In this document: positions 3,926 through 38,294 of the stretch, one piece after another
How the letters are laid out: every line of letters starts with the position of its first letter
Position numbering within the stretch: the stretch's first letter is position 1
Source: a virus
Taxonomy: Duplodnaviria > Heunggongvirae > Uroviricota > Caudoviricetes
DNA: 46,731 nt
Virus record (IMG/VR): IMGVR_UViG_2529292726_000019
Direction: 5' to 3' (one strand)
Made by a program: the position numbers and the translations under genes
The notes under the pieces: generated by a model
Told to the model about the DNA's origin: nothing
Database searches by the model: none
The model's input: the letters and a program-made list of their open reading frames with translations, nothing else

Positions 3926-4519
3926 CTAAGCAGCCTTCTTTGATGGTCTTTTTTTCCTGATCACATTCGCAGGATCATACCCTCCCAGACTTTTCATGAC
4001 GTCCAAAGGGATCTTGCTTATAGAGTGCCCAGCGTCCTGACAGAATCCTCGAAAAACAACGAGCATACTGCCACCTGGGTTGATGTTTACTTCTACCTGA
4101 CCCAGATTTACGTCAGGCTCGACAAACGCTACGCGGCCACCAGACAGAATAATCGTCTCATTCGCACACTCTGTTGCACGCTCATACCACTTTGTATCTA
4201 GGGATTGAGGAATTAGCATCACTGTTGTAACTCCACGAGCCTGCTCACGTATAGCCGCATCAATCCAGGGGGAGATTTTGGAGTAGGGTGGATTGAGGAA
4301 GGCAATTGTACCTGGCTGTCCCCATTCAGATTTCAAAGCATCACGCTCAACGCCTATGAAATTAGGCAGCTTTGCATTGTCCTTGTTGCAGGCAACGTCA
4401 ACATCAAATGTCACTCCAAGATAACGTTGAATGGCAGAAAACAGCCAGTCAGGTGTTCTCCAGAGGTCACGAAGAGAGTTGTCGCGCTTTCGCTGTTTGA
4501 TTTTTTCGGCTGCAATCAT
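3926..4519 (-). CDS. DNA N6-adenine methyltransferase (phage Dam-like)
   Basis: N-terminal WRTPDWLF and catalytic NPPYS motif typical of phage Dam-like N6A methyltransferases. GATC specificity is not provable from sequence. Confidence 0.8.
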   Translation of the reverse strand: MIAAEKIKQRKRDNSLRDLWRTPDWLFSAIQRYLGVTFDVDVACNKDNAKLPNFIGVERDALKSEWGQPGTIAFLNPPYSKISPWIDAAIREQARGVTTVMLIPQSLDTKWYERATECANETIILSGGRVAFVEPDVNLGQVEVNINPGGSMLVVFRGFCQDAGHSISKIPLDVMKSLGGYDPANVIRKKRPSKKAA

Positions 4520-7502: not shown

Positions 7503-8147
7503 CTAATGAACGGTTACTCGGCCACAGAACCGGTTTTCTATCTTTTCTACAGCGTTATCTAGCATTCTCATCACTGATCTGGCTCTTGCTTCAACCGTGC
7601 GATATCGGTTGGAAACGACGAAGGTTTGCAGATCCCCCCTTTGCGGATGCAGGTGAATTTTTGTCAGTTCCCCGCACATCAACGCATCAATACGAGCGAC
7701 ATACAGACGGTCTAATGATGCTCGTTGTGATCGCAAGTAATCTCGCTCTGAGAGAGCGACTCCCGGGCGTAAGCCAGCAATGGCGTTAAAGTTTGAAATA
7801 GCAGTTTTGTGGCAAAACTTTTCGATATCGAGGGCTAACTCAATACACCGATCTTCATTTGTATGGCCGACCAAATCCAACGTGTAGGCCATAACATCAG
7901 CAGGTGTGCGATCGATAACAAAGCCTTCAACACCACGTGTAAGTAGCTCTATATGCTTTGCTATTTCCATTTGAATCTGAAGCCGCTCATATAGAGGCAT
8001 AGACTCACCTACTCGAACACCGAGGCGGCTCATCAAACTTCCGACACCAGCATCCACGTAAGGGATTCCGTAATGTTTGTCGATATATTTAGCCAGGGTT
8101 GTTTTCCCACTGCCCTGAGCACCAGTGATCCCAATCCGGTAATCCAT
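7503..8147 (-). CDS. P-loop kinase, probable deoxynucleoside monophosphate kinase
   Basis: Walker A GITGAQGSGKTT at the N-terminus; sits among thymidylate-synthesis genes. Confidence 0.5.
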   Translation of the reverse strand: MDYRIGITGAQGSGKTTLAKYIDKHYGIPYVDAGVGSLMSRLGVRVGESMPLYERLQIQMEIAKHIELLTRGVEGFVIDRTPADVMAYTLDLVGHTNEDRCIELALDIEKFCHKTAISNFNAIAGLRPGVALSERDYLRSQRASLDRLYVARIDALMCGELTKIHLHPQRGDLQTFVVSNRYRTVEARARSVMRMLDNAVEKIENRFCGRVTVH

Positions 8148-8623
8148 TACGACCTTCTGTATACGATCTGCGAAAAGCCAGGCTCTTCCTCGCTGGCTCG
8201 TTGGGTATAAGCTGTTTCAACAGGCACAAAGCCTAAGTTACGCATCATGCTTGCCGGGAAGAATGCATCGGCGTTTGGTACATCAACGCCGATGTGGGAG
8301 AGCCAAATCTCTTCAACATGCGGCATGAATAGCGAGTAAATTTGTTCCCCGCCAATCACCCACACTGGCTCTGGTAATCGCAACACATCATCCACACCAG
8401 CAGGGTAGAATCCATTTGGTACAAAGCCATGAGAGCGCGTCAAAACGAGGTTATGACGCTCTGGAAGAGGGCGTTTGAGACTTTCCATCGTTTTACGCCC
8501 CATAACGACAGTGGCGTTTTTGGTGAGTCTCTTAAATAGCTTCAGATCGGTAGAACAACGCCAGGGCAGTTCGTTCGCTATGCCGATCTCATAGTTACGG
8601 CCAACAGCAGCTATCATCTTCAT
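8147..8623 (-). CDS. folA: dihydrofolate reductase
   Basis: MIAAVGRNYEIGIANELPW...VMGRKTMESL matches the DHFR N-terminal signature; ATGA-coupled to the kinase gene. Confidence 0.8.
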   Translation of the reverse strand: MKMIAAVGRNYEIGIANELPWRCSTDLKLFKRLTKNATVVMGRKTMESLKRPLPERHNLVLTRSHGFVPNGFYPAGVDDVLRLPEPVWVIGGEQIYSLFMPHVEEIWLSHIGVDVPNADAFFPASMMRNLGFVPVETAYTQRASEEEPGFSQIVYRRS

Positions 8624-9034: not shown

Positions 9035-10165
9035 TCACACCGCCACTGGAACCTTGATCCACGGTAGAGGGGCATAGCCAAGAATAAGAATCTCGTCCCA
9101 TTTGAAATCATCCAGCTCAGACCATTCATTAGGGAATATAACGACCGGATCTGAATGCTCTGGAGCCTGTCGTTGCATTAGCTCACACACACCTTCCATG
9201 TGGTTGTTGTACAAATGCACGTCAAAGCCAAAATGCACAAATGCACCGGCCATGTGACCCGTAATCTTCGCGAGAAAATGAGTGAGAATGCCATAGCCAG
9301 CAATATTGAATGGCATACCAACAAAAGTGTCTACGCTACGCTGTACGAGGCAGGAGTTGAGGATGCGTTTGGGGATTCCAAGTTCATCCAGTTCAGTTTC
9401 AGTAACACTGCCGTCCATCTCCAGATCGTATAGCATCTTGGTGTAGATAGACTCATAACCGAGGCGACTGTGTTGAAGACCAATGTCAGTTGCCATCGTT
9501 AAACGGGTTTCAAAATCCAGTTCACGACTCCACAAAGAGAAGACAAAGTGGCAAGGGGGCAGTTTCATATCCTCAAGCTCGCCTACGTTCCATGCGTTAA
9601 GCATGATGCGACGATCGGTAGGGTTCGTGCGCAGTGTATCGACAATACGCTGTAGCTGATCGATTTCACGGGACAGCACTACGCGATCTTCACTGATACC
9701 CAGGTATCCCTCGACTTTGTACCCGCGTTCACGGAAAGTAGCGATCTTGCTCAGATATTCACTATGGCTCACGATGCGGGTATCTTCCCATCGACGCCAC
9801 TGCTTACCGTAAACCGGCCCCAAATCGCCATTCTCATCGGCCCATGCATCCCAAATCTTAACGCCGTTATCCTTGAGAAATTGGATGTTGCCCGTGCCTT
9901 TCAGATACCACTCAAGTTCGACAAGCAGTGGCTTAAGATTTACCGCCTTTCCAGAAATAAGCGGCACAGTCCCACCAGTAAGCATGTAGTAAGAGGGAAC
10001 GTAGCAGGTGCTTAAAGTACCAGTGCCTGTGCGATCATCAGCCTGCACGCCGCTTTTAAGCACCGTCTCAATAACTTTTGCATACGATGCGTTTGTTCCC
10101 TGACCGTTCGTATGCTCACGATTCAAAAGGAGTGACACAAAAACCTCACAAAGATAAGTAACCAC
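9035..10165 (-). CDS. thyA: thymidylate synthase
   Basis: DDRTGTGTLS, LKPLLVELEWYLKG, GDLGPVYGKQWRRW and catalytic-Cys region MKLPPCHFVFSLW. Confidence 0.85.
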   Translation of the reverse strand: MVTYLCEVFVSLLLNREHTNGQGTNASYAKVIETVLKSGVQADDRTGTGTLSTCYVPSYYMLTGGTVPLISGKAVNLKPLLVELEWYLKGTGNIQFLKDNGVKIWDAWADENGDLGPVYGKQWRRWEDTRIVSHSEYLSKIATFRERGYKVEGYLGISEDRVVLSREIDQLQRIVDTLRTNPTDRRIMLNAWNVGELEDMKLPPCHFVFSLWSRELDFETRLTMATDIGLQHSRLGYESIYTKMLYDLEMDGSVTETELDELGIPKRILNSCLVQRSVDTFVGMPFNIAGYGILTHFLAKITGHMAGAFVHFGFDVHLYNNHMEGVCELMQRQAPEHSDPVVIFPNEWSELDDFKWDEILILGYAPLPWIKVPVAV

Positions 10166-11256: not shown

Positions 11257-12399
11257 TTACAGGTCTGCAAACTGGCTTAGAGAAGCCTTATCCACGGTAG
11301 AATCGATCTGACCTACCAGATATGTGCTTTGCTCTGCCTCTTGTGGTGCAATTTGCAGTGTGTCGGTTAACAACCACTTGTTCATCCAGACCAGCGGATC
11401 AGTGGTAACTTCTGGAAATAAAGCCTTCAGGCCAAGACGATTCATAGCCAGATTGGTGCGGTATTTTACATAGGTCTTCAGAATATCCGCGTTTAAACCA
11501 ATCATCGAACCGTCTTTGAAGAGATAGTCTGCCCAGTTCATTTCTTGTTCGGCGACTGATTTCATGGTGTCGCAAATGACGTTTTCTTCATCAGCAGCAA
11601 TCTCTTTCCACAATAAACCTTCGCGACCGGTACGCATGAAGCGGATCATGCGTTCAGTTCCTTCGCAATGCAGAGCTTCATCACGGGCAATAAAGCGCAT
11701 AATTTTGGTGTTACCCTCAAGCAACTTCCGTTCACCAAAGGCAAACGTACATGCAAAACTTACGTAGAAACGGATCGCCTCAAGCGCATTAATGGACACC
11801 AACGTGCGGAAAAGCTGACGATGCAAAGGGTATGGCCCCCAGCCATATTCATTTACGTACAGACGCTCAAATTCCTTCTCACCTAACGACTGGCGCTCGC
11901 AGGTCATCCCATAAAGCCTGTCATATTCAGCAGAGATACTGATCGCTCGGTTGATGATTTCTTCATCCGTAACAATACCGTCAAAAACAATGCTCGGATC
12001 GTCCACCATGCCACGAATAATGTGGGTGTAGCTGCGGCTATGGATAGTCTCAGAGAAAGACCACGTTTCAACCCACGTTTCCAGTTCAGGAATAGAGATA
12101 AGCGGCAGCAGCGTTGCATTTGGACTACGTCCCTGAACTGAATCGAGTAACGTTTGATAACGGAGATTGCTCAGAAAAATGTGACGTTCGTGGTCCCGCA
12201 GCTTCGTGTTGAAGTCGATACGATCGCTCGAAATATCAACTTCTTCCGGCCGCCAGAAGAAAGACAATTGACGTTCAATCAACTTTTCAAAATCACGGTA
12301 TTTTTGCTGATCGTAACGTGCCACGTTGACAGATTGTCCGAGGAACATAGGCTCTTTGGTTGCATCATTAGCACCCAAACGGAACGTTGAATATGACAT
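11257..12399 (-). CDS. nrdB: ribonucleotide reductase class Ia beta subunit
   Basis: FFWRPEEVD, diiron/tyrosyl-radical region and overall length; conserved start region upstream. Confidence 0.9.
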
Positions 12400-12481
12400 G
12401 TGTTTTTCCTTTTTCTTTTTTGGTGCGTTTAAACAAGTTGTTATCTTATGTGTTTAAACAAGGCTTACAAATCAAAGAGAA

Positions 12482-12500
12482 GGTGGGGATATCCCCCACC
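12482..12500 (-). terminator. hairpin ggtggggatatcccccacc downstream of nrdA
   Basis: Perfect stem followed by a T-rich run on the minus strand. Confidence 0.45.
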
Positions 12501-12505
12501 ATATG

Positions 12506-14821
12506 TCAGATTTTGCAGGCTCCGTCGCACTCATCTTCTGGCTCGACGGCTACAGCTTGCGCCAATGGATTCTGCGGTTCGTCGTCATCACGCTTTCCTG
12601 CACCATCTCTGGTGTTGTGGTAGTAAAGCGTTTTAACTCCCATCTTGTAGGCGAGAAGCAAATCTGACAGTAGCGTCATCATTGGGACTTTATCGCCTTC
12701 AAAGCGAGAAGGGTCATAGTTGGTATTGGCTGAAATAGCCTGGTCAAAGAACTTCTGGATGATCGCCACCTTTGTCAGATAGCCGCGGTTGTCCGGCATA
12801 TCCCACAGGTATTCATACTGTTCCTTCAGTTTTTCAAACTCAGGCACGACCATCTTAACGATGCCGTCCTTAGAAGATTTCACCGACACCGGGCCACGAG
12901 GCGGTTCGATGCCGTTGGTGGAATTAGTGATCTGGCTGGAAGTCTCGCATGGCATTTGTGCCGTCAGTGTGGAGTTGCGAAGGCCGTATTTTGCAATACG
13001 TTCACGCAGTTCTTCCCACGGCATCTTTAACTCAAAGTTGGTTTCGCCACTTTCGTCTAATGAAGAACGGTAATGGTCGATCGGCAACTGACCAATTGCG
13101 TACTTGGTCTGCTCAAACCAGTCACACTCACCTTTTGCTTCAGCAAGTCGGCAGCTGGCATCAAGAAGGTAATACTGGATAGCTTCGAATGTTTCATGCA
13201 CCAGTTTATTGCCAGCGGTATCAGAATAACGAACGCCATTCTTTGCCAGGTAATAAGCAAAGTTGGTTACACCAATTCCCAAGCTACGACGAGCTTTGGC
13301 AGGCACTTCGGCTGCCTCCATCGGATAGTCTTGATAATCCAGTAACGAATCCAGTGCAGCAACGGCATAGAACGCCACCTCTTTAAGAGACTCCAGTGAA
13401 CGGATGGCTCCGAGGTTAAAAGCGGATAAAGTGCATAGCGCGATCTCACCGTTCGGGTCGTCGGTAAATGCCAGTGGACGGGTGGGTAGGGTGATCTCCA
13501 TACACAGGTTTGACTGGCGGACAGGTGCAAGAGCAGGAATGAAAGCGCCATGCTCATTAATATGATCGACGTTCGCAATATAAATTCGGCCCGTGGACGC
13601 TCGTTCCTGCATCAGAGATGAGAACAGCTCAATGGCAGGTACTGACTTCTTGCGAATTGAATCATCGGCTTCGTATTTATGGTACAGCTTTTCAAACAGC
13701 TCCTGGTCTGTGAAGAAGGCTTCGTACATATCAGGCACATCATGCGGGCTGAACAGAGTGATGTTCTCGCTTCTGACGAGTCGACGGTACATTAGACGGT
13801 TACTCATGACGCCGTAATCAAGATGGCGAACGCGGTTTTCATCAATACCACGGTTATTTTTCACCACCAGCAGACTTTCAACTTCAAGATGCCAGATCGG
13901 GTAAAACGCTGTTGCTGCGCCACCACGAACACCACCTTGCGAACAAGATTTAACAGCCGTCTGGAAATGCTTCAGGAATGGAATAACTCCGGTATGGGTG
14001 GCTTCACCATTGCGGATCTCGCTGCCCAGCGCACGGATACGGCCAAAACCAATACCAATTCCAGCACGACGTGAAACGTAGTCGATAATTGCGGCTGAAG
14101 CTGCACTAATCCCTTTCAGACTATCGCCAGACTCAATCAGCACACAACTGGAGAACTGACGGGTTGGAGTACGGACGCCGGCCATGATTGGTGTGGGCAG
14201 AGACAGTTTGAACGTACTTGTAACGTCATAGAAACCTTTGACCATCTCCATACGTGTTTTGCCAGCGCAGTCGTCTTCCCAATTCTGGAACAGACACATG
14301 CCTACCAGCATATAGATATGTTGCGGCCCCTCATGAATCTCACCAGTAACACGGTTTTGAACGAGGTATTTGCTTTGCAACTGCACCGTAGCTGCATAGC
14401 CAAAAAGATCGTCACGTTTCGGCTTAATGTAATTGCCGAGTTCTTCGATCTCTTCAAACGAATAATGAGTCAGCAAATCCTTGTCATAAACGCCCTTGTT
14501 AACGTTCTTGACAATGTGTTGGTAGAAGTTCGGATAGTCGTAACGACCGAAGGCATCTTTGCGGATTTTAAAAATGTTCAGGCGGGCAGCCACCTGTGAG
14601 TAATTTGGTGCTTCTGGTGAGATCAAATCAGCGGCAGATTTAACCAAAGCCTCATGCAACTGGCTGGTGGTCATCCCATCAAAAATGCTGGCCGCAGCTC
14701 CCATTGCTACAGCGGATGCGCTTACACCACGAATGCCTTCTACGCCATACATTACGACGCGGTTGTATTTTTCTTCGGATAACGGCTCTGTTTGGCCGTT
14801 ACGTTTTACGATGCTTATCAT
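12506..14821 (-). CDS. nrdA: ribonucleotide reductase class Ia alpha subunit
   Basis: 771 aa with ATP-cone N-terminus and catalytic-site region (NLCMEI, C-terminal redox Cys pair CDGACKI). Confidence 0.9.
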   Translation of the reverse strand: MISIVKRNGQTEPLSEEKYNRVVMYGVEGIRGVSASAVAMGAAASIFDGMTTSQLHEALVKSAADLISPEAPNYSQVAARLNIFKIRKDAFGRYDYPNFYQHIVKNVNKGVYDKDLLTHYSFEEIEELGNYIKPKRDDLFGYAATVQLQSKYLVQNRVTGEIHEGPQHIYMLVGMCLFQNWEDDCAGKTRMEMVKGFYDVTSTFKLSLPTPIMAGVRTPTRQFSSCVLIESGDSLKGISAASAAIIDYVSRRAGIGIGFGRIRALGSEIRNGEATHTGVIPFLKHFQTAVKSCSQGGVRGGAATAFYPIWHLEVESLLVVKNNRGIDENRVRHLDYGVMSNRLMYRRLVRSENITLFSPHDVPDMYEAFFTDQELFEKLYHKYEADDSIRKKSVPAIELFSSLMQERASTGRIYIANVDHINEHGAFIPALAPVRQSNLCMEITLPTRPLAFTDDPNGEIALCTLSAFNLGAIRSLESLKEVAFYAVAALDSLLDYQDYPMEAAEVPAKARRSLGIGVTNFAYYLAKNGVRYSDTAGNKLVHETFEAIQYYLLDASCRLAEAKGECDWFEQTKYAIGQLPIDHYRSSLDESGETNFELKMPWEELRERIAKYGLRNSTLTAQMPCETSSQITNSTNGIEPPRGPVSVKSSKDGIVKMVVPEFEKLKEQYEYLWDMPDNRGYLTKVAIIQKFFDQAISANTNYDPSRFEGDKVPMMTLLSDLLLAYKMGVKTLYYHNTRDGAGKRDDDEPQNPLAQAVAVEPEDECDGACKI

Positions 14822-19692: not shown

Positions 19693-20337
19693 TTACAGCG
19701 CGTCAGTGGGCTTTTTACGCGCTGCGTTTATGCTTATGACGCCAGCTTTTGGACGTGGGTCAACAAGGTTAAGCTCTTCTTCGCTGTGGTATTCGAGGTC
19801 GAACTCACGTTTTACATGTCTGATGTAGATTGCGGTGAGCAGGCTATTTTTGGTCAGAAAGTGTCCGTAGGATTTGCGGATCACTTCTTCTACCTTCTCG
19901 ATTTTCTCACCACCCATACAGAGATGATTAAACCGGCTGTGTTTCCGCAACATTTCGTCTACTGGGCCTGAGTAAACCTTGTCTACTTTCCCAAAACGGA
20001 TGATTTTCCCTGTGTCTGCGGATACGAGGCAAATCAGCTTGTCTGGTGATAAACGATCTCGCCACGTCACACCTGAACGGAGTGTGTTGAAGTAGGGAGC
20101 ATCCAATCCGATGATCGGTTTACGAAATGCGAGTAATGGAACGTACCTGATGCAACTGTTTAAATGAAAATTCACACCAGCCTTATCAAGTTTAATTCTG
20201 GTTTCGTAGATCGGGCACTTCGCCGCTATACCGCAGATGTCACAAAGCAACTTCTGCTTATTCAGGTTGGAATTTGATTCGATAGTGTAGGAGCCGTCTT
20301 CAAGACGACGAACCCAGCGCGTGCGTTTTAGATCCAT
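19693..20337 (-). CDS. hypothetical protein (214 aa)
   Basis: ORF with a CDICG...C cysteine cluster; no family recognised. Confidence 0.5.
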   Translation of the reverse strand: MDLKRTRWVRRLEDGSYTIESNSNLNKQKLLCDICGIAAKCPIYETRIKLDKAGVNFHLNSCIRYVPLLAFRKPIIGLDAPYFNTLRSGVTWRDRLSPDKLICLVSADTGKIIRFGKVDKVYSGPVDEMLRKHSRFNHLCMGGEKIEKVEEVIRKSYGHFLTKNSLLTAIYIRHVKREFDLEYHSEEELNLVDPRPKAGVISINAARKKPTDAL

Positions 20338-20419
20338 ATGTCATTTTTCTGTGATTGTTAGCCGAGGCAACGATAACCCACCAGGTGCGCCGAAGGTAGT
20401 AAATGCCTGTTTTAATTAT

Positions 20420-20500
20420 TCACATATCCACAGGATAGATCCTAATAAAGAGATCCATAGATAGATCCTTATATAGATCAAATAAGATCCCCGATCGCTG
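20420..20500. promoter_or_regulatory. origin-like region: DnaA-box-like TATCCACA plus six GATC sites in about 59 bp (AGATCC heptamer repeats)
   Basis: GATC at about 20438, 20452, 20464, 20476, 20486 and 20493; DnaA-box-like atatccaca at 20424-20432. Confidence 0.5.
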
Positions 20501-20536
20501 TAAGCCGCGCCACGACTGGTCTGAAGTCATGTTCAT

Positions 20537-20648
20537 GTATGCTGTCAGCGGTAATTGATAGTCTGTCAGCGGTTCACCGTATGCTGCCAACTGTTTTTGG
20601 TATTCTGTCAGCGGCAAATCAAGTATGCTGTCAGCGGTTGAATGACAA
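20537..20648. repeat. five iterons (consensus GTATGCTGTCAGCGGT) upstream of repA at roughly 21-22 bp spacing
   Basis: Direct repeats at about 20537, 20559, 20579 (degenerate), 20600 and 20633. Confidence 0.8.
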
Positions 20649-20658
20649 AGGTGTCCAC

Positions 20659-21753
20659 ATGTCCACAAAAAATAAAAAAGGTAAAAATAACAAAGAAGTA
20701 GAAGATAACATCGACAACTTTGAAGAAGGTTCCCTTGAATTGTACACAGGGGAACTTGTCCCTAATAGCAACAATACAGTCCAACCAATTGCGTTGATGC
20801 GACTGGGGTTGTTCGTCCCCACGCTTAAGGGAACAAAATACAGTAAACGTAACAAGCCAAATGAGATCGATGCTTCAAAGGAGCTTGTCCAGCTCGAAGT
20901 AGCCCGTTCTGAAGGCTATTCCGATATCAAGATAACCGGTCCTCGTCTCGACATGGATCATGATTTCAAAACGTGGGTGGGCGTTGTGCGTTCGCTGGCA
21001 GAATACGGCGAACCTAACGGTCGTGTCGAGTTAAGCATCACGAAATTTGCTAAGTTTTGTGGCTATCCATCGTCACAGATCCGCAAAACACTCCGCGACC
21101 GGCTTACAAACAGTCTTTTGAAGATCATGCGTACAACTCTGTCTTTCCAGAGAACGTATGAAGAAAAGAACGTCGACGGCTCTAACAAGATCTCGCTTCT
21201 GATGGTGCACCTCATCAATAGCGTGGACTACAACGAGCAGAAAGATACGGTGGTGTTCTATGCAGAACCGAAGCTGGCCGAACTATATCGCTTTGACCAT
21301 AAGGTTCTTTTGCAGTTAAAGGTTATCAATAAGCTACCACGCAAAGAAACAGCACAGGCTCTGTACACCTTCATCGAAAGTCTTCCAACCAAGCCTGCGC
21401 CGGTATCGCTTGCTCGATTGCGTGCGCGACTCAATTTGAGTAGCAGAAATGTCAGCTCGCAGAATCAGACTATACGTAACGGCTTAAAAGCTCTCCAAGA
21501 TTTGGGCTATCTCGAATACAGCGAGATTAAGCGTGGGCGGTCGATCTATATCCAGATTCACAGCCGCAATCCAAAACTCAAAGTCGCACCGCCAAAACCT
21601 GAAGACATCGAACCCAAAAAACCAGATGAGAAAGCTGGGGAAATTGATGCCAAACAGAACATTATCAACAAGATAACCGAACTTTCGCAGAATTTGACGC
21701 CTGAAAATATCAAGATGATTGAGATCCTTTCCAATAGTCTCAAACTGCTTTGA
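20659..21753 (+). CDS. repA: iteron-binding replication initiator (RepA-like)
   Basis: Only long plus-strand gene in this block, bracketed by 17 copies of its presumptive binding site. Start placed at ATG 20659 (MSTKNKKGK) downstream of the iterons. Confidence 0.75.
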   Translation: MSTKNKKGKNNKEVEDNIDNFEEGSLELYTGELVPNSNNTVQPIALMRLGLFVPTLKGTKYSKRNKPNEIDASKELVQLEVARSEGYSDIKITGPRLDMDHDFKTWVGVVRSLAEYGEPNGRVELSITKFAKFCGYPSSQIRKTLRDRLTNSLLKIMRTTLSFQRTYEEKNVDGSNKISLLMVHLINSVDYNEQKDTVVFYAEPKLAELYRFDHKVLLQLKVINKLPRKETAQALYTFIESLPTKPAPVSLARLRARLNLSSRNVSSQNQTIRNGLKALQDLGYLEYSEIKRGRSIYIQIHSRNPKLKVAPPKPEDIEPKKPDEKAGEIDAKQNIINKITELSQNLTPENIKMIEILSNSLKLL

Positions 21754-21870
21754 TATGCTGTCAGCGGTGAAATGTATGCTATCAGCGGCTATTTTTCTGA
21801 AAAGTATGCTGTGAACGGTTAAAGATATGCTACCAGCGGTATAGTGAGATGAACGTATGCTGTGAGCGGT
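21754..21870. repeat. five iterons immediately downstream of repA
   Basis: Copies at about 21754, 21774, 21804, 21825 and 21855 with single-base variants. Confidence 0.8.
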
Positions 21871-22030
21871 AAATCATCTATCACCACTCAATGCTCTGTC
21901 ATACCTCCCCAGTGGTTACTAACCTCGAAGAGTGCATTCCATATAGGTTTGCGCTCACTAACATTCTATTGCTATTGCGCTGATTGCTTGTAGTGAAAGG
22001 CATTTATTGCCTGCTACTCCCTGATAGAAC

Positions 22031-22285
22031 GTATGCTGTCAGCGGTGTTTTATTGAGGAATTTTTGTTTGGATATGCTATCAGCGGTAATTAATGGTATA
22101 TGTCAGACATTCGTATGCTGCCAGCGGTAATTTTGTTCTGGTTATACCCATACCGGGACACATTATTCATGCAATTTCTTAAGTATGCTGTCAGCGGTAA
22201 AAAATCGAGTAAAGTATGCTGTGAGCGGTGAGATAGACTCTCGATATGCTATCAGCGGTAGTTGATTGTGTATGCTGTCAGCGGT
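22031..22285. repeat. seven further iterons (incA-like copy-control array)
   Basis: Copies at about 22031, 22072, 22114, 22183, 22214, 22244 and 22270. Confidence 0.8.
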
Positions 22286-22300
22286 GACGACTATGAAATA

Positions 22301-22325
22301 TGACTGCGGAACGTGCCGCAGTCAG
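22301..22325 (-). terminator. hairpin gactgcgg-aacgt-gccgcagtc
   Basis: Perfect 8-bp stem followed by a T-rich run on the plus strand, i.e. after the repA/iteron unit; it precedes rather than follows the adjacent minus-strand gene. Confidence 0.45.
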
Positions 22326-22332
22326 TTTGCAT

Positions 22333-22545
22333 TTAGTGTATTTTCTTTAACAGACCCCAAAGTGTTCCGGCTTTTGTAGTCAGTTTTCCTGTTTCTGGAT
22401 CGTACATACGCCATTCACGCCGCTGGTGGACGATATACCCATCTTCACGTTCCAGACGCTCAAGAATGCCAGGCTGCTTGAAACCCTTAGCACGCCAGTA
22501 GCCGCTTGTTTTCTCGATTTCCAGACCTGCCAGTGTTAATGCCAT
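22333..22545 (-). CDS. hypothetical protein (70 aa)
   Basis: ORF; stop/start coupled with the upstream gene. Confidence 0.4.
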   Translation of the reverse strand: MALTLAGLEIEKTSGYWRAKGFKQPGILERLEREDGYIVHQRREWRMYDPETGKLTTKAGTLWGLLKKIH

Positions 22546-37196: not shown

Positions 37197-38294
37197 AAAA
37201 TTTACACGAATAAGCTCTGTTGATAGACGATCTCCCTTGAATTTGTGGTCAATTTCGTCTAAATCCGGTTGCTCTACGATTGATGCGATGTACGTCGAGA
37301 AACTTTCTAAGGCGTCTCGCATCTCGTCCATATAATCGTGCCGGTCGTAGACTCGATCTATCCCCTCAAGACTGTGGTTCATGATTTTGCGTGATACCTC
37401 CTGGCTTATGCCTAATGCTGGGAAGTAACTACGCGCAGTACGGCGCAAATCTCGGGGTGTAAATGGCTCAAGCTCCATCAGTTCTGGTCGTTCCAGAATA
37501 CGACGTAATGCCTGGGCTATTGCCACTTTAGACATAGGAAGGTCTTTCCCGATTTTTTTATTCGAAGGCACGAGCCACTGGCTGCCTTTACCGTATTCGA
37601 ACAACTCTTCAATACATGTGCGCATTAATGTGCTTAAAGGCAGCGAATGCTCACGGGCAGATTTGTTCCTCTTGCCTTGATTCCAAACCCCACGCTTAAG
37701 ATTGAACTCACTTTTTTTAGCCCGCAGTACTTCGTCAGGTCGTCTTGCGGATACAAGACACAGCCTGGCCGCCCATTTTGTACCAGCGCACACATTGAAG
37801 TAGTCCCATATATTCCAGAACACCCATACCTCTGCGTCGGTCAGCTTCCGCTCGCGAGGTGTGGGCTTTGCGCCACCGGCAACTTTGTTTAGTGACATAT
37901 CGTTTAACGGTGACACGTCTATCATCCCCTGGAAGGCGCACCAGCTAAGGAACTGCTTCATCAGAGAGAAAACGCGGCGGCCCATAACAATTTTGCCATC
38001 CAGTATTAGTGGGTTGACCAGTTGGTTCACCATGAACCTATTAATGTCACTTACTTTTACATCGGCAATGTGCGGCAAAACATGTATCAAAATACAATGA
38101 ACAGCGATCTCTGGCCGACGTCTGGTTATCAGCAGAGATAAGCGAGTGAATAACATGAATGCGTCCGAGAATCTCATGTCATTGCTGACCTGGGAGATCA
38201 TAACGGCCTGCATTTGAGATGCTCTTTCGAGATACTCAATCGCCTCTTTTGAGGTGTTCTCCGCAGCGCGTGCTCTGTCAAAGCTATTTTTCAT
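37191..38294 (-). CDS. tyrosine site-specific recombinase (integrase/Cre-like)
   Basis: C-terminal catalytic region ARRPDE...RDLRRTARSY...MNHS...YDRHDY consistent with the R-H-R-Y tetrad. Confidence 0.75.
   Translation of the reverse strand: MKNSFDRARAAENTSKEAIEYLERASQMQAVMISQVSNDMRFSDAFMLFTRLSLLITRRRPEIAVHCILIHVLPHIADVKVSDINRFMVNQLVNPLILDGKIVMGRRVFSLMKQFLSWCAFQGMIDVSPLNDMSLNKVAGGAKPTPRERKLTDAEVWVFWNIWDYFNVCAGTKWAARLCLVSARRPDEVLRAKKSEFNLKRGVWNQGKRNKSAREHSLPLSTLMRTCIEELFEYGKGSQWLVPSNKKIGKDLPMSKVAIAQALRRILERPELMELEPFTPRDLRRTARSYFPALGISQEVSRKIMNHSLEGIDRVYDRHDYMDEMRDALESFSTYIASIVEQPDLDEIDHKFKGDRLSTELIRVNFS

What the first reader, a model, noticed from the sequence alone, without database searches (positions are those of the whole stretch)
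20420..22285. P1-type plasmid replicon embedded among phage replication genes
The layout is a DnaA-box-like TATCCACA, six GATC sites in about 59 bp, five iterons at ~21-bp spacing, repA, five more iterons, a 160-bp gap and seven further iterons. This mirrors phage P1 oriR/incC/repA/incA, where Dam methylation of the GATC heptamers controls initiation. The same window encodes a Dam-like methyltransferase (3926-4519), so the element may supply its own origin methylation.
Basis: partly seen in the sequence, partly recalled or inferred. Interest (0 to 1): 0.6.

Follow-up and report, generated by a model that had tools for sequence, protein, structure and literature searches.

The report
P1/RepFIB-type plasmid replicon of phage-plasmid
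This stretch is the low-copy plasmid replication unit (origin, initiator gene repA and copy-control repeats) that lets an SSU5-like E. coli phage persist as a plasmid; it is a clear relative of the phage P1 and IncF RepFIB replicons and is already catalogued as a replicon type, so it is real but ordinary.

Summary

- **Initiator:** RepA (364 aa, true start 20659) is 46% identical to P1 RepA and 52% to F-plasmid RepFIB RepA. It models as a two-winged-helix iteron initiator.
- **Origin core:** the DnaA boxes, AGATCC heptamers, CGATCG and GC-rich spacer align base by base with P1 oriR. Only the iteron sequence differs.
- **Element:** an SSU5-like phage-plasmid of the pECOH89/p09EL50 group. The replicon is in 119 of 5,426 complete E. 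coli genomes, always on plasmids. It is already typed as IncFIB(H89-PhagePlasmid).

Differences from P1:
- all 12 control iterons are direct;
- the spacer holds a conserved non-iteron block of unknown function;
- RepA has a C-terminal helical tail;
- no parAB lies next to it.

The Dam-family gene exists, on the minus strand. That it methylates the origin is untested and unnecessary, because the hosts have Dam and F RepFIB has the same GATC array in its origin. Ordinary and already known; low interest.

The parts
20416..20432 (+). Two tandem DnaA boxes overlapping by one base: TTATTCACA (perfect TTATNCACA) and ATATCCACA (1 mismatch). This is the left end of the origin.
   Evidence: They align with the annotated DnaA site of P1 oriR (TTATCCACATTATCCACT).
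20433..20497 (.). AT-rich (35% GC) array of five (A/G/T)AGATC(C/A) heptamers plus CGATCG, giving six GATC (Dam/SeqA) sites. Presumed strand-opening region.
   Evidence: 1 of 500 shuffles. Columns are invariant across P1, JK004, Ro157, pJN2-26 and SSU5 in alignment A1. P1 Dam sites are annotated.
20504..20519 (.). GC-rich spacer GCCGCGCCACGACTGG between the GATC array and the first iteron.
   Evidence: Conserved against P1 (GCCGCGCCACGTCTGG) and the other relatives in alignment A1. The wider segment 20498-20537 that contains it is 55% GC.
20538..20638 (+). Five origin iterons (incC-like), consensus TATGCTGTCAGCGGT, spaced 21/21/21/23 bp.
   Evidence: Same number and spacing as P1 incC copies 14-10. 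At a 3-mismatch threshold, 34 of 37 related IMG/VR loci show five and 3 show four.
20597..20626 (+). Candidate repA promoter TTGGTA-N18-AAGTAT, overlapping iterons 4 and 5 (inferred autorepression).
   Evidence: It occupies the position of the annotated P1 PrepA (TTGCTA-N18-TATAGG between iterons 12/11 and 11/10). It is a weak match (7 of 12) and was not found by the strict scan.
20651..20667 (+). Two overlapping DnaA-box-like 9-mers, GTGTCCACA and ATGTCCACA (2 mismatches each), at the right end of the origin, across the repA start codon.
   Evidence: Sequence. Relatives have GTATCCACA (1 mismatch) at the same place. P1 has CTATCCACA on this side.
20659..21753 (+). repA, the iteron-binding initiator (364 aa): winged-helix domains WH1 and WH2, a disordered linker (309-329) and a C-terminal helical hairpin (331-363).
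   Evidence: Pfam Rep3_N 3.9e-9. 46% identity to P1 RepA, 52% to F RepFIB RepA, 49% to SSU5 RepA. AF2 model. Foldseek hits to RctB, RepE, pi and TrfA.
21754..21870 (+). Proximal control array: five direct iterons starting at the base after the repA stop codon, spaced 21/30/21/30 bp (incA-like).
   Evidence: P1 incA also starts at the repA stop.
21871..22031 (.). 161-bp spacer without iteron-like sequence. It holds a conserved block at 21907-21964: CCCCAGTGGTTACTAACCT...AGGTTTG...TCACTAACAT.
   Evidence: PWM scan. The block is conserved in Salmonella, Cronobacter, Klebsiella and SSU5-type replicons. It lies 140-380 bp past repA in 72 of the 73 IMG/VR loci (of 80 analysed) that also have a RepA homologue, and about 1.6 kb away in the other one. 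Its orientation is flipped in the SSU5 group.
22032..22285 (+). Distal control array: seven direct iterons spaced 41/41/70/31/30/26 bp.
   Evidence: The number varies among relatives: phage PhiR41_1 lacks the last three, and Klebsiella elements carry 8-9 downstream iterons in all.
22301..22324 (.). GC-rich hairpin (9 pairs), terminator-like on both strands, closing the replicon against the converging minus-strand genes.
   Evidence: Conserved in the Salmonella relative.
3926..4519 (-). Phage Dam-family N6-adenine methyltransferase (197 aa). It is context only; a role at the origin is unproven.
   Evidence: PF05869 2.5e-38. TIGR01712 at 113.9 bits against a cut-off of 97. phrog_111.

Best explanation
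This is the plasmid-prophage maintenance replicon of an SSU5-like E. coli phage-plasmid of the pECOH89/p09EL50 group. It belongs to the P1/RepFIB family of iteron replicons.

Inferred mechanism, by homology with P1 (none of these steps was shown here):
1. RepA monomers bind the five origin iterons.
2. Host DnaA binds the boxes at both ends of the origin.
3. Together they open the AT-rich GATC-heptamer array and load the host replisome.
4. After firing, the six hemimethylated GATC sites are sequestered by SeqA until Dam remethylates them, which limits re-initiation.
5. RepA bound to the origin iterons also covers its own weak promoter, giving autorepression.
6. The 12 extra iterons downstream of repA titrate RepA and pair with origin iterons (handcuffing), holding copy number near one per chromosome.

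RepA and its iterons form a specificity cassette. It has diverged far more than the flanking phage genes and the host-factor part of the origin, which probably allows related phage-plasmids to coexist.
For: Shown here:
- RepA homology to P1 RepA (46%, 3e-86), F RepFIB RepA (52%, 2e-110) and SSU5 RepA (49%).
- Pfam Rep3_N above its cut-off.
- The AF2 model has WH1 and WH2 domains. Its best PDB matches are iteron initiators: RctB, RepE with operator, a Rep-iteron-DUE complex, pi and TrfA.
- The origin core aligns with P1 oriR, with invariant DnaA-box, GATC and GC-spacer columns across six replicons that use four different iteron sequences. P1 features are annotated.
- 17 iterons against 1 expected, with a clean PWM separation.
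- The architecture is kept in 37 related loci: five origin iterons in 34 and four in 3, 8-12 direct control iterons, and six GATC in 36.
- 119 of 5,426 complete E. coli genomes carry the replicon. All 185 places are on plasmids and none is chromosomal.
- 142 PLSDB plasmids carry it, mostly about 110 kb and non-mobilizable.
- p09EL50 is typed with a single replicon cluster and was seen as a ~110-kb plasmid by PFGE (PMC3486847).
- Typing tools list the SSU5 replicon as IncFIB. The name IncFIB(H89-PhagePlasmid) appears in 25 papers.
- Cassette divergence: the flanking proteins are 85% and 94% identical to SSU5, against 49% for RepA.

From the literature: P1 oriR requires methylated DNA and is opened by DnaA with RepA (review text and reference-list titles).
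Against: - No experiment on this sequence was available to me. Autonomous replication, DnaA, Dam and SeqA dependence, autorepression and handcuffing are all inferred from P1 and RepFIB.
- The right-hand DnaA-like boxes are weak (2 mismatches each).
- The candidate promoter matches only 7 of 12 consensus positions, and the strict scan missed it.
- The control arrays differ from P1 incA. All iterons are direct, they are split by a spacer, and the spacer holds a conserved non-iteron block that the P1 model does not explain.
- No parAB lies next to the replicon, unlike in P1.
Confidence: 0.9

Rival explanations
1. One reading: the phage-encoded Dam (3926-4519, minus strand) methylates the origin GATC array. 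This would make plasmid replication independent of host Dam, or would override SeqA sequestration.
For: - A genuine Dam-family gene is in the same element.
- dam is listed among the genes conserved across pECOH89, p09EL50 and pLF82 (PMC3999498).
- Six GATC sites are conserved in the origin.
- GATC is not avoided in the window: 222 sites against 191 expected.
Against: - The hosts seen here are Escherichia, Shigella, Salmonella, Klebsiella and Cronobacter. From general knowledge, these enterobacteria have their own Dam.
- F-plasmid RepFIB has the same DnaA-box and GATC origin core. That F carries no dam gene is my recollection; only a 7-kb stretch was inspected. If so, host Dam suffices for this origin type.
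- dam sits in the long minus-strand DNA-metabolism gene block, while repA is transcribed the other way. That fits a lytic-phase function such as protecting or marking progeny DNA.
- The GATC specificity of this particular enzyme is not established.
Confidence: 0.12
2. The RepA-iteron origin is also, or mainly, the origin for lytic phage replication rather than a lysogeny-only plasmid origin.
For: - It sits inside the phage replication and nucleotide-metabolism module.
- No second initiator was recognised in this 46.7-kb window.
Against: - In P1, from my knowledge, the homologous replicon serves the prophage and a separate origin (oriL, with repL) serves lytic growth.
- Twelve copy-control iterons and a SeqA-type GATC array are devices for once-per-cycle replication, the opposite of what lytic amplification needs.
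- Only about 43% of the element is in the window, so another origin may lie outside it.
Confidence: 0.1
3. The distal seven-repeat cluster (22032-22285) is not a copy-control array but a centromere or other protein-binding array.
For: - It is separated from the proximal array by 161 bp that contain a conserved non-iteron block.
- Its spacing (26-70 bp) is irregular.
Against: - The repeats match the origin iterons (0-1 mismatches), so they should bind RepA.
- Their number varies freely among close relatives, from 12 to 9 to 8 downstream iterons in all, as expected for a titrating array.
- parA and parB are listed among the family's genes (PMC3999498), and no ParA/ParB family was found among the window ORFs scanned here.
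Confidence: 0.03

Closest known systems
Phage P1 / P7 plasmid replicon (oriR-incC-repA-incA)
   Same: - RepA is 46% identical.
- Same order of parts: tandem DnaA boxes, GATC heptamers, GC-rich spacer, five iterons at about 21 bp, repA, then control iterons starting at the repA stop codon.
- The origin core aligns at the DNA level.
- Both belong to phages that lysogenise as plasmids, and (from my knowledge for P1) both phages also encode a Dam-type methylase.
   Different: - Iteron sequence: TATGCTGTCAGCGGT here, GATGTGTGCTGGAGGG in P1.
- Six intact GATC sites here against five in P1.
- 12 control iterons, all direct and split 5 + 7 by a 161-bp spacer. P1 has nine in one block, three direct and six inverted.
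- RepA is 78 aa longer (N-terminal 12 aa, C-terminal linker plus helical hairpin).
- parAB and parS do not follow the control array.
- The left DnaA boxes overlap by one base, and the right-hand boxes are weaker.
RepFIB basic replicon of IncF plasmids (F, P307, pColV-K30 REPI)
   Same: - This is the closest characterised RepA found here, at 52% identity.
- It has the C-terminal tail, which aligns to about query residue 339 of 364 with weak similarity.
- The same DnaA-box plus GATC array lies upstream.
- The window's replicon is named an IncFIB type by PlasmidFinder.
   Different: - Different iteron sequence and arrangement.
- RepFIB sits on conjugative plasmids next to a tyrosine recombinase gene, not in a phage genome.
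- The conserved ACTAAC block was not found in F by pattern search.
SSU5 / pHCM2 / pLF82 (Cyrano)-type replicon of sister phage-plasmids
   Same: - Same genomic slot, between the same flanking genes (85% and 94% protein identity).
- Same origin core, and the same conserved ACTAAC block downstream of repA.
   Different: - RepA is only 49% identical, with unrelated iterons (about ATCCACTGTAGNGAG).
- Its control iterons are partly inverted and the ACTAAC block is in the opposite orientation.
- SSU5 has a second, degenerate copy of the origin core.
Vibrio cholerae chromosome 2 origin (RctB)
   Same: - An iteron origin with a DnaA box, Dam/SeqA control and separate inhibitory sites (PMC6090056).
- RctB domains 2-3 are the best structural match to the RepA model.
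   Different: - GATC lies inside the RctB iterons there, not in a separate heptamer array.
- RctB has extra domains.
- Its inhibitory sites (39-mers) are a different sequence class from its iterons.

Membership tests
P1/RepFIB-family iteron replicon (Rep_3 initiators) | Initiator homologous to P1 RepA / RepFIB RepA | tested here: met
   46% identity to P1 RepA (3e-86). 52% to F RepFIB RepA (2e-110). 477 homologues named RepA, RepB-family or RepFIB.
P1/RepFIB-family iteron replicon (Rep_3 initiators) | Two winged-helix domains (WH1 + WH2) as in RepE, pi and pPS10 RepA | tested here: met
   Pfam Rep3_N (WH1) at 37.5 bits against a cut-off of 22.4. The AF2 model has WH1 at 89-202 and WH2 at 204-303. 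Foldseek probability is 1.00 to RctB, RepE and Rep-iteron complexes. A sequence-only PDB search found nothing.
P1/RepFIB-family iteron replicon (Rep_3 initiators) | Array of direct iterons at about two helical turns, immediately upstream of repA | tested here: met
   Five iterons at 21/21/21/23 bp, ending 20 bp before the ATG.
P1/RepFIB-family iteron replicon (Rep_3 initiators) | DnaA boxes flanking the origin | tested here: met
   On the left, one perfect box and one with a single mismatch. On the right, only 2-mismatch boxes, although relatives have a 1-mismatch box at that position.
P1/RepFIB-family iteron replicon (Rep_3 initiators) | AT-rich GATC-heptamer array and GC-rich spacer between the DnaA boxes and the iterons (P1 origin core) | tested here: met
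   Six GATC in 59 bp, with columns invariant across six replicons.
P1/RepFIB-family iteron replicon (Rep_3 initiators) | Second set of iterons downstream of repA acting as copy-control locus (incA) | tested here: met
   The iterons are present: 12 of them, starting at the repA stop codon. Their orientation and split layout differ from P1. The copy-control function itself was not testable.
P1/RepFIB-family iteron replicon (Rep_3 initiators) | repA promoter inside the origin iterons (autorepression) | tested here: inconclusive
   Only a weak positional homologue of P1 PrepA was found (TTGGTA-N18-AAGTAT), and the strict scan found none. Geometry forces any promoter to overlap the origin, because only 20 bp separate iteron 5 from the ATG.
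P1/RepFIB-family iteron replicon (Rep_3 initiators) | Autonomous replication dependent on RepA, DnaA, Dam methylation and DnaK/DnaJ/GrpE | not testable with these tools
   Needs cloning and host-mutant tests. Indirect support: every one of the 185 places in complete E. coli genomes is on a plasmid.
P1 plasmid maintenance region specifically (rep + par block) | parA-parB-parS immediately downstream of incA | tested here: not met
   Small minus-strand genes of unknown function follow the replicon. No ParA/ParB family was found among the window ORFs scanned. parA and parB are listed among the family's genes (PMC3999498).
IncFIB(H89-PhagePlasmid) / MOB-suite rep_cluster_488 replicon type | Near-identity to the pECOH89 / p09EL50 repA reference | tested here: met
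   99.8% DNA identity to p09EL50 over 1,901 bp. p09EL50 is typed rep_cluster_488. pECOH89 RepA is reported as 100% identical to that of p09EL50 (PMC3999498). PlasmidFinder itself was not run.
Phage Dam methyltransferase (PF05869 / TIGR01712) | Profile match above the curated cut-offs | tested here: met
   PF05869 at 131.8 bits (cut-off 28.1). TIGR01712 at 113.9 bits (cut-off 97.05).
Phage Dam methyltransferase (PF05869 / TIGR01712) | GATC specificity and action on the element's own origin | not testable with these tools
   Needs methylome data from a dam-minus host carrying the element.

The most novel reading that the evidence does not exclude
Two things are not excluded.

(a) The phage Dam, sitting in the lytic DNA-metabolism operon, acts as a switch. 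On induction it remethylates the six origin GATC sites at once, abolishes SeqA sequestration and turns the once-per-cycle P1-type origin into a repeatedly firing one.

(b) The conserved ACTAAC block in the control-array spacer (21907-21964) is a binding site for a host or phage factor that modulates iteron handcuffing. It is shared by replicons with unrelated iterons and is flipped in orientation between them.

The probability given is for either being true.
Probability: 0.15. Interest if true: 0.5.

Novelty: already known. Interest (0 to 1): 0.2.

Why it matters
SSU5-like phage-plasmids spread resistance genes such as CTX-M-15 in E. coli (pECOH89, PMC3999498). About 2% of complete E. coli genomes carry this replicon. 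It decides their copy number, their incompatibility and their detection by replicon typing.

The base-level map given here is useful for three things:
- correcting annotation (repA start; iterons mislabelled as attL/attR; "replication helicase");
- designing mini-replicons;
- interpreting copy-number mutants.

It does not reveal a new mechanism. It is a textbook P1/RepFIB-type iteron replicon. The only loose end of possible interest is the conserved non-iteron block in the control region.

Tried and rejected
- **Sequence search of RepA against PDB chains:** no hit. The fold search was needed instead.
- **NCBIfam:** no model for RepA.
- **Translating 3926-4519 on the + strand:** failed; the gene is on the minus strand.
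- **Strict sigma-70 scan:** no + strand promoter in the origin. Only a weak positional homologue turned up with relaxed rules.
- **161-bp spacer:**
  - no degenerate iterons on either strand by PWM;
  - no Rfam family (only a chance mir-2 hit at E = 1);
  - no significant ssDNA folding (z = -1.4 and -0.5);
  - not coding (a stop codon in the Cronobacter version);
  - by eye, no convincing IHF consensus or conserved -10;
  - no operator-like copies of the ACTAAC motif elsewhere in the window;
  - not found in P1 or F RepFIB by pattern.
- **Centromere reading of the distal repeats:** rejected because they match the origin iterons.
- **Papers I could not read:** the 2026 bioRxiv preprint on phage-plasmid heteroresistance, which mentions RepA 41 times, the P1 genome paper and the primary P1 oriR papers. 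P1 biology beyond the GenBank annotations and the review text therefore rests on titles in reference lists and on my own knowledge.
Full report
**1.

Reading 20200-22500 and searching the repeat consensus confirm the layout.

- Left end: TTATTCACA (20416-20424, a perfect DnaA box) overlaps ATATCCACA (20424-20432) by one base.
- GATC array: six sites at 20438, 20452, 20464, 20476, 20486 and 20493, spanning 59 bp. Five are (A/G/T)AGATC(C/A) heptamers and the sixth is CGATCG.
  - The window has 222 GATC sites overall, about one per 210 bp.
  - This is the only cluster of more than three.
  - Only 1 of 500 dinucleotide shuffles reached six in 59 bp.
- Iterons: TATGCTGTCAGCGGT occurs 17 times with up to 3 mismatches, all on the + strand, against 1.0 expected.
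  - A PWM built from them scores all 17 at 19 bits or more. The next best site in the window scores 13.4.
  - Origin set: 20538, 20559, 20580, 20601, 20624.
  - Proximal downstream set: 21754, 21775, 21805, 21826, 21856.
  - Distal set: 22032, 22073, 22114, 22184, 22215, 22245, 22271.
  - A 161-bp gap (21871-22031) separates the last two sets.

There are two corrections. The longest repA ORF starts at 20539, inside iteron 1. The real start is very probably ATG 20659, for three reasons:
- it has an AAGG ribosome-binding site 7 nt upstream;
- phage PhiR41_1 is annotated with this start;
- similarity to P1 RepA begins at residue 32.

The Dam-like ORF at 3926-4519 is on the minus strand.

**2. What the element is**

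The 2.1-kb region is 99-100% identical to Escherichia phage PhiR41_1 (108 kb) and phage CMS-2020a. It also matches 142 PLSDB plasmids. Most are non-mobilizable E. coli or Shigella plasmids of about 110 kb, including p09EL50 of E. coli O104:H4 (99.8%).

- The pECOH89 paper states that its RepA is 100% identical to that of p09EL50 and 48% to that of pLF82. It also states that these plasmids are SSU5-like (PMC3999498).
- p09EL50 was seen physically as a ~110-kb plasmid (PMC3486847).
- Among 5,426 complete E. coli genomes, 119 carry the replicon. All 185 matching places are on plasmids and none is on a chromosome.
- Typing tools already hold the SSU5 replication gene as IncFIB (bioRxiv 2025.09.12.675607). 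The label IncFIB(H89-PhagePlasmid) appears in 25 papers. MOB-suite calls it rep_cluster_488.

The surroundings are a phage DNA-metabolism module, nearly all on the minus strand:
- RNase H, Dam, a DnaQ-like exonuclease, DHFR, thymidylate synthase;
- RNR large and small subunits, SbcCD-like nuclease, a RecA-like protein;
- 5'-3' exonuclease, gp32-like SSB, Pol III alpha, a tyrosine recombinase, ligase and primase.

repA is one of the few plus-strand genes. That fits a separately controlled lysogeny function.

**3. Homology to P1 and RepFIB**

*Protein.* RepA (364 aa) hits Pfam Rep3_N above threshold. It is 46% identical to P1 RepA over residues 32-309 (3e-86), 52% to the RepFIB RepA of plasmid F (2e-110) and 49% to SSU5 RepA. 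A database search found 477 homologues, named RepA, RepFIB or RepB-family, across Enterobacterales.

*Structure.* An AlphaFold model built from a 30-sequence alignment has mean pLDDT 70.9, and above 80 through most of the core. It shows:
- two winged-helix domains (about 89-202 and 204-303);
- a disordered linker (309-329);
- a C-terminal helical hairpin (331-363) that P1 RepA lacks.

F RepFIB RepA also extends past the WH2 domain; its tail aligns to about residue 339 with weak similarity. The best PDB matches are iteron initiators: RctB domains 2-3, RepE with its operator, a Rep-iteron-DUE complex, pi with an iteron, and TrfA.

*DNA.* The part of the origin that host factors use is homologous to P1 oriR.
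- P1: TTATCCACATTATCCACTGGATAGATCCAATAA...GATCCCTGATCGTTGCAGGCCGCGCCACGTCTGG
- Window: TTATTCACATATCCACAGGATAGATCCTAATAA...GATCCCCGATCGCTGTAAGCCGCGCCACGACTGG

 In K02380 and AF234172 these P1 positions are annotated as the DnaA site, Dam methylation sites, incC iterons, PrepA and incA iterons.

The alignment covers six replicons: the window, Klebsiella pJN2-26, P1, Cronobacter JK004, P1-like Ro157 and SSU5. The DnaA boxes, GATC heptamers, the GATCCCnGATCG motif and the GCCG...CTGG spacer are invariant or nearly so. The iterons fall into four unrelated sequence classes.

Further parallels with P1:
- The control iterons begin at the base after the repA stop codon.
- DnaA-like boxes lie at the right end of the origin (GTGTCCACA and ATGTCCACA across the ATG). 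Relatives have GTATCCACA there and P1 has CTATCCACA.
- A weak promoter-like pair, TTGGTA-N18-AAGTAT, sits where P1 PrepA sits.

**4. Differences from P1**

- All 12 downstream iterons are direct. P1 incA has three direct and six inverted. This held in all 37 IMG/VR loci with the same iteron type. Those loci carry 8-12 downstream iterons. At the 3-mismatch threshold, 34 show five origin iterons and 3 show four; 36 keep six GATC and one keeps five.
- PhiR41_1 lacks the last three iterons, consistent with an 87-bp deletion between repeats. Klebsiella pJN2-26 has 4 + 4.
- The arrays are split by a spacer.
- RepA carries extra N- and C-terminal segments.
- No parAB follows the replicon.

The RepA-plus-iteron cassette is far more diverged from SSU5 (49%) than the genes on either side (85% and 94%). 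Phage Cyrano (pLF82-type) still matches the window up to the first iteron at 76% DNA identity. The specificity module has therefore been exchanged or has diverged rapidly inside a conserved slot. That is the expected route to escape incompatibility.

**5. The 161-bp gap**

The gap holds no iteron-like sequence, no Rfam family and no unusual ssDNA fold. It does hold a block at 21907-21964, CCCCAGTGGTTACTAACCT...AGGTTTG...TCACTAACAT.

- The block is much better conserved than the spacers between iterons in Salmonella and Cronobacter relatives.
- A pattern scan of IMG/VR gave 84 loci, of which I analysed 80. In 73 of them a RepA homologue is present. In 72 of those 73 the block lies 140-380 bp past the end of the RepA match; in one (L025) it is about 1.6 kb away.
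- In the H89/Klebsiella iteron group it has the same orientation as repA. In the SSU5-type group, which has different iterons, it has the opposite orientation.
- In Klebsiella pJN2-26 it follows the last iteron rather than splitting the arrays.
- It is not coding, has no copies elsewhere in the window and was not found in P1 or F RepFIB.

I could not assign a function. It may be a host- or phage-factor site in the control region.

**6. How it most likely works**

This is inferred from the P1 and RepFIB literature: the review PMC5043065, reference titles, and my own knowledge of P1.

1. RepA monomers occupy the five origin iterons.
2. DnaA binds the flanking boxes.
3. Together they melt the AT-rich heptamer array.
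4. The GATC sites must be methylated for firing. While hemimethylated they are sequestered by SeqA.
5. RepA on the iterons represses its own promoter.
6. The 12 downstream iterons titrate RepA and handcuff origins, keeping copy number low.

The parts list and the homology are shown here. Every functional step is inferred.

**7. The Dam idea**

The ORF is a true phage Dam-family enzyme (PF05869 2.5e-38; TIGR01712 above cut-off), and dam is conserved in the family. Against a role at the origin:
- From general knowledge, the enterobacterial hosts seen here have Dam.
- The F RepFIB origin has the same kind of GATC array. That F carries no dam gene is my recollection, not something tested here.
- The gene sits in the lytic-type minus-strand operon.

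I rate origin self-methylation at about 0.1. It is not excluded. A role as an induction switch that defeats SeqA sequestration would be the most interesting version.

**8. Verdict**

The replicon is a catalogued member of the P1/RepFIB family (IncFIB(H89-PhagePlasmid)) in a well-known group of phage-plasmids.

The open papers I could search on SSU5-type elements never mention iterons, so the base-level anatomy may not be in print. Even so, it follows directly from homology. Interest is low. The one unexplained item is the conserved block in the control region.

Noticed in passing
window 21907-21964: A conserved non-iteron block (CCCCAGTGGTTACTAACCT...TCACTAACAT) lies inside the spacer between the two control-iteron clusters. 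It occurs downstream of repA in both the H89-type and the SSU5-type replicons. Its orientation is opposite in the two groups. Function unknown.
   Followed up: partly
L005 (SSU5 JQ965645) 1771-1950 and 2155-2430: SSU5 has two copies of the origin core upstream of repA. The distal copy has six intact GATC sites and five iterons. The repA-proximal copy has most GATC sites mutated (GAACC, GACCC) and six iterons.
   Followed up: no
window 20539-20658; L002 3140-4354; L006 2378-2397 and 3648-3667: Annotation errors in public records. RefSeq starts repA 40 codons too early, inside the first iteron (404 aa). The pJN2-26 record labels two iterons as phage attachment sites attR and attL. PHROGs (phrog_775) and RefSeq phage records call RepA a 'replication helicase', although it has no helicase domain.
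   Followed up: partly
L001 (PhiR41_1) 4061-4120 against window 22184-22285: The phage PhiR41_1 (its record gives E. coli K-12 MG1655 as host) lacks the last three control iterons. The spacing fits an 87-bp deletion between iterons 22184 and 22271. It is a natural variant that might have a raised copy number.
   Followed up: no
window 37191-38294 (-): A tyrosine recombinase (Phage_integrase domain) is encoded in an element that is never found integrated in E. coli chromosomes. It is probably a Cre/ResD-like multimer-resolution enzyme. Its site was not looked for.
   Followed up: no
window 8147-8623 (-), 9035-10165 (-), 11257-14821 (-): The element carries its own DHFR, thymidylate synthase and class I ribonucleotide reductase. 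A search result title (PMC12217456) reports novel trimethoprim-resistance dfrA genes in phage-plasmids, so this phage DHFR might affect trimethoprim susceptibility.
   Followed up: no
window 32808-36247 (-): A CobT-like VWA protein (702 aa) sits next to a dynein-type AAA_5 ATPase (411 aa), between Pol III alpha and the recombinase. This is a MoxR/VWA-like pair of unknown role in a phage replication module.
   Followed up: no
window 20991-21009 (-): One weak iteron-like site (CGTATTCTGCCAGCGAACG, PWM 9.4 bits) lies on the minus strand inside repA. It is probably chance.
   Followed up: no
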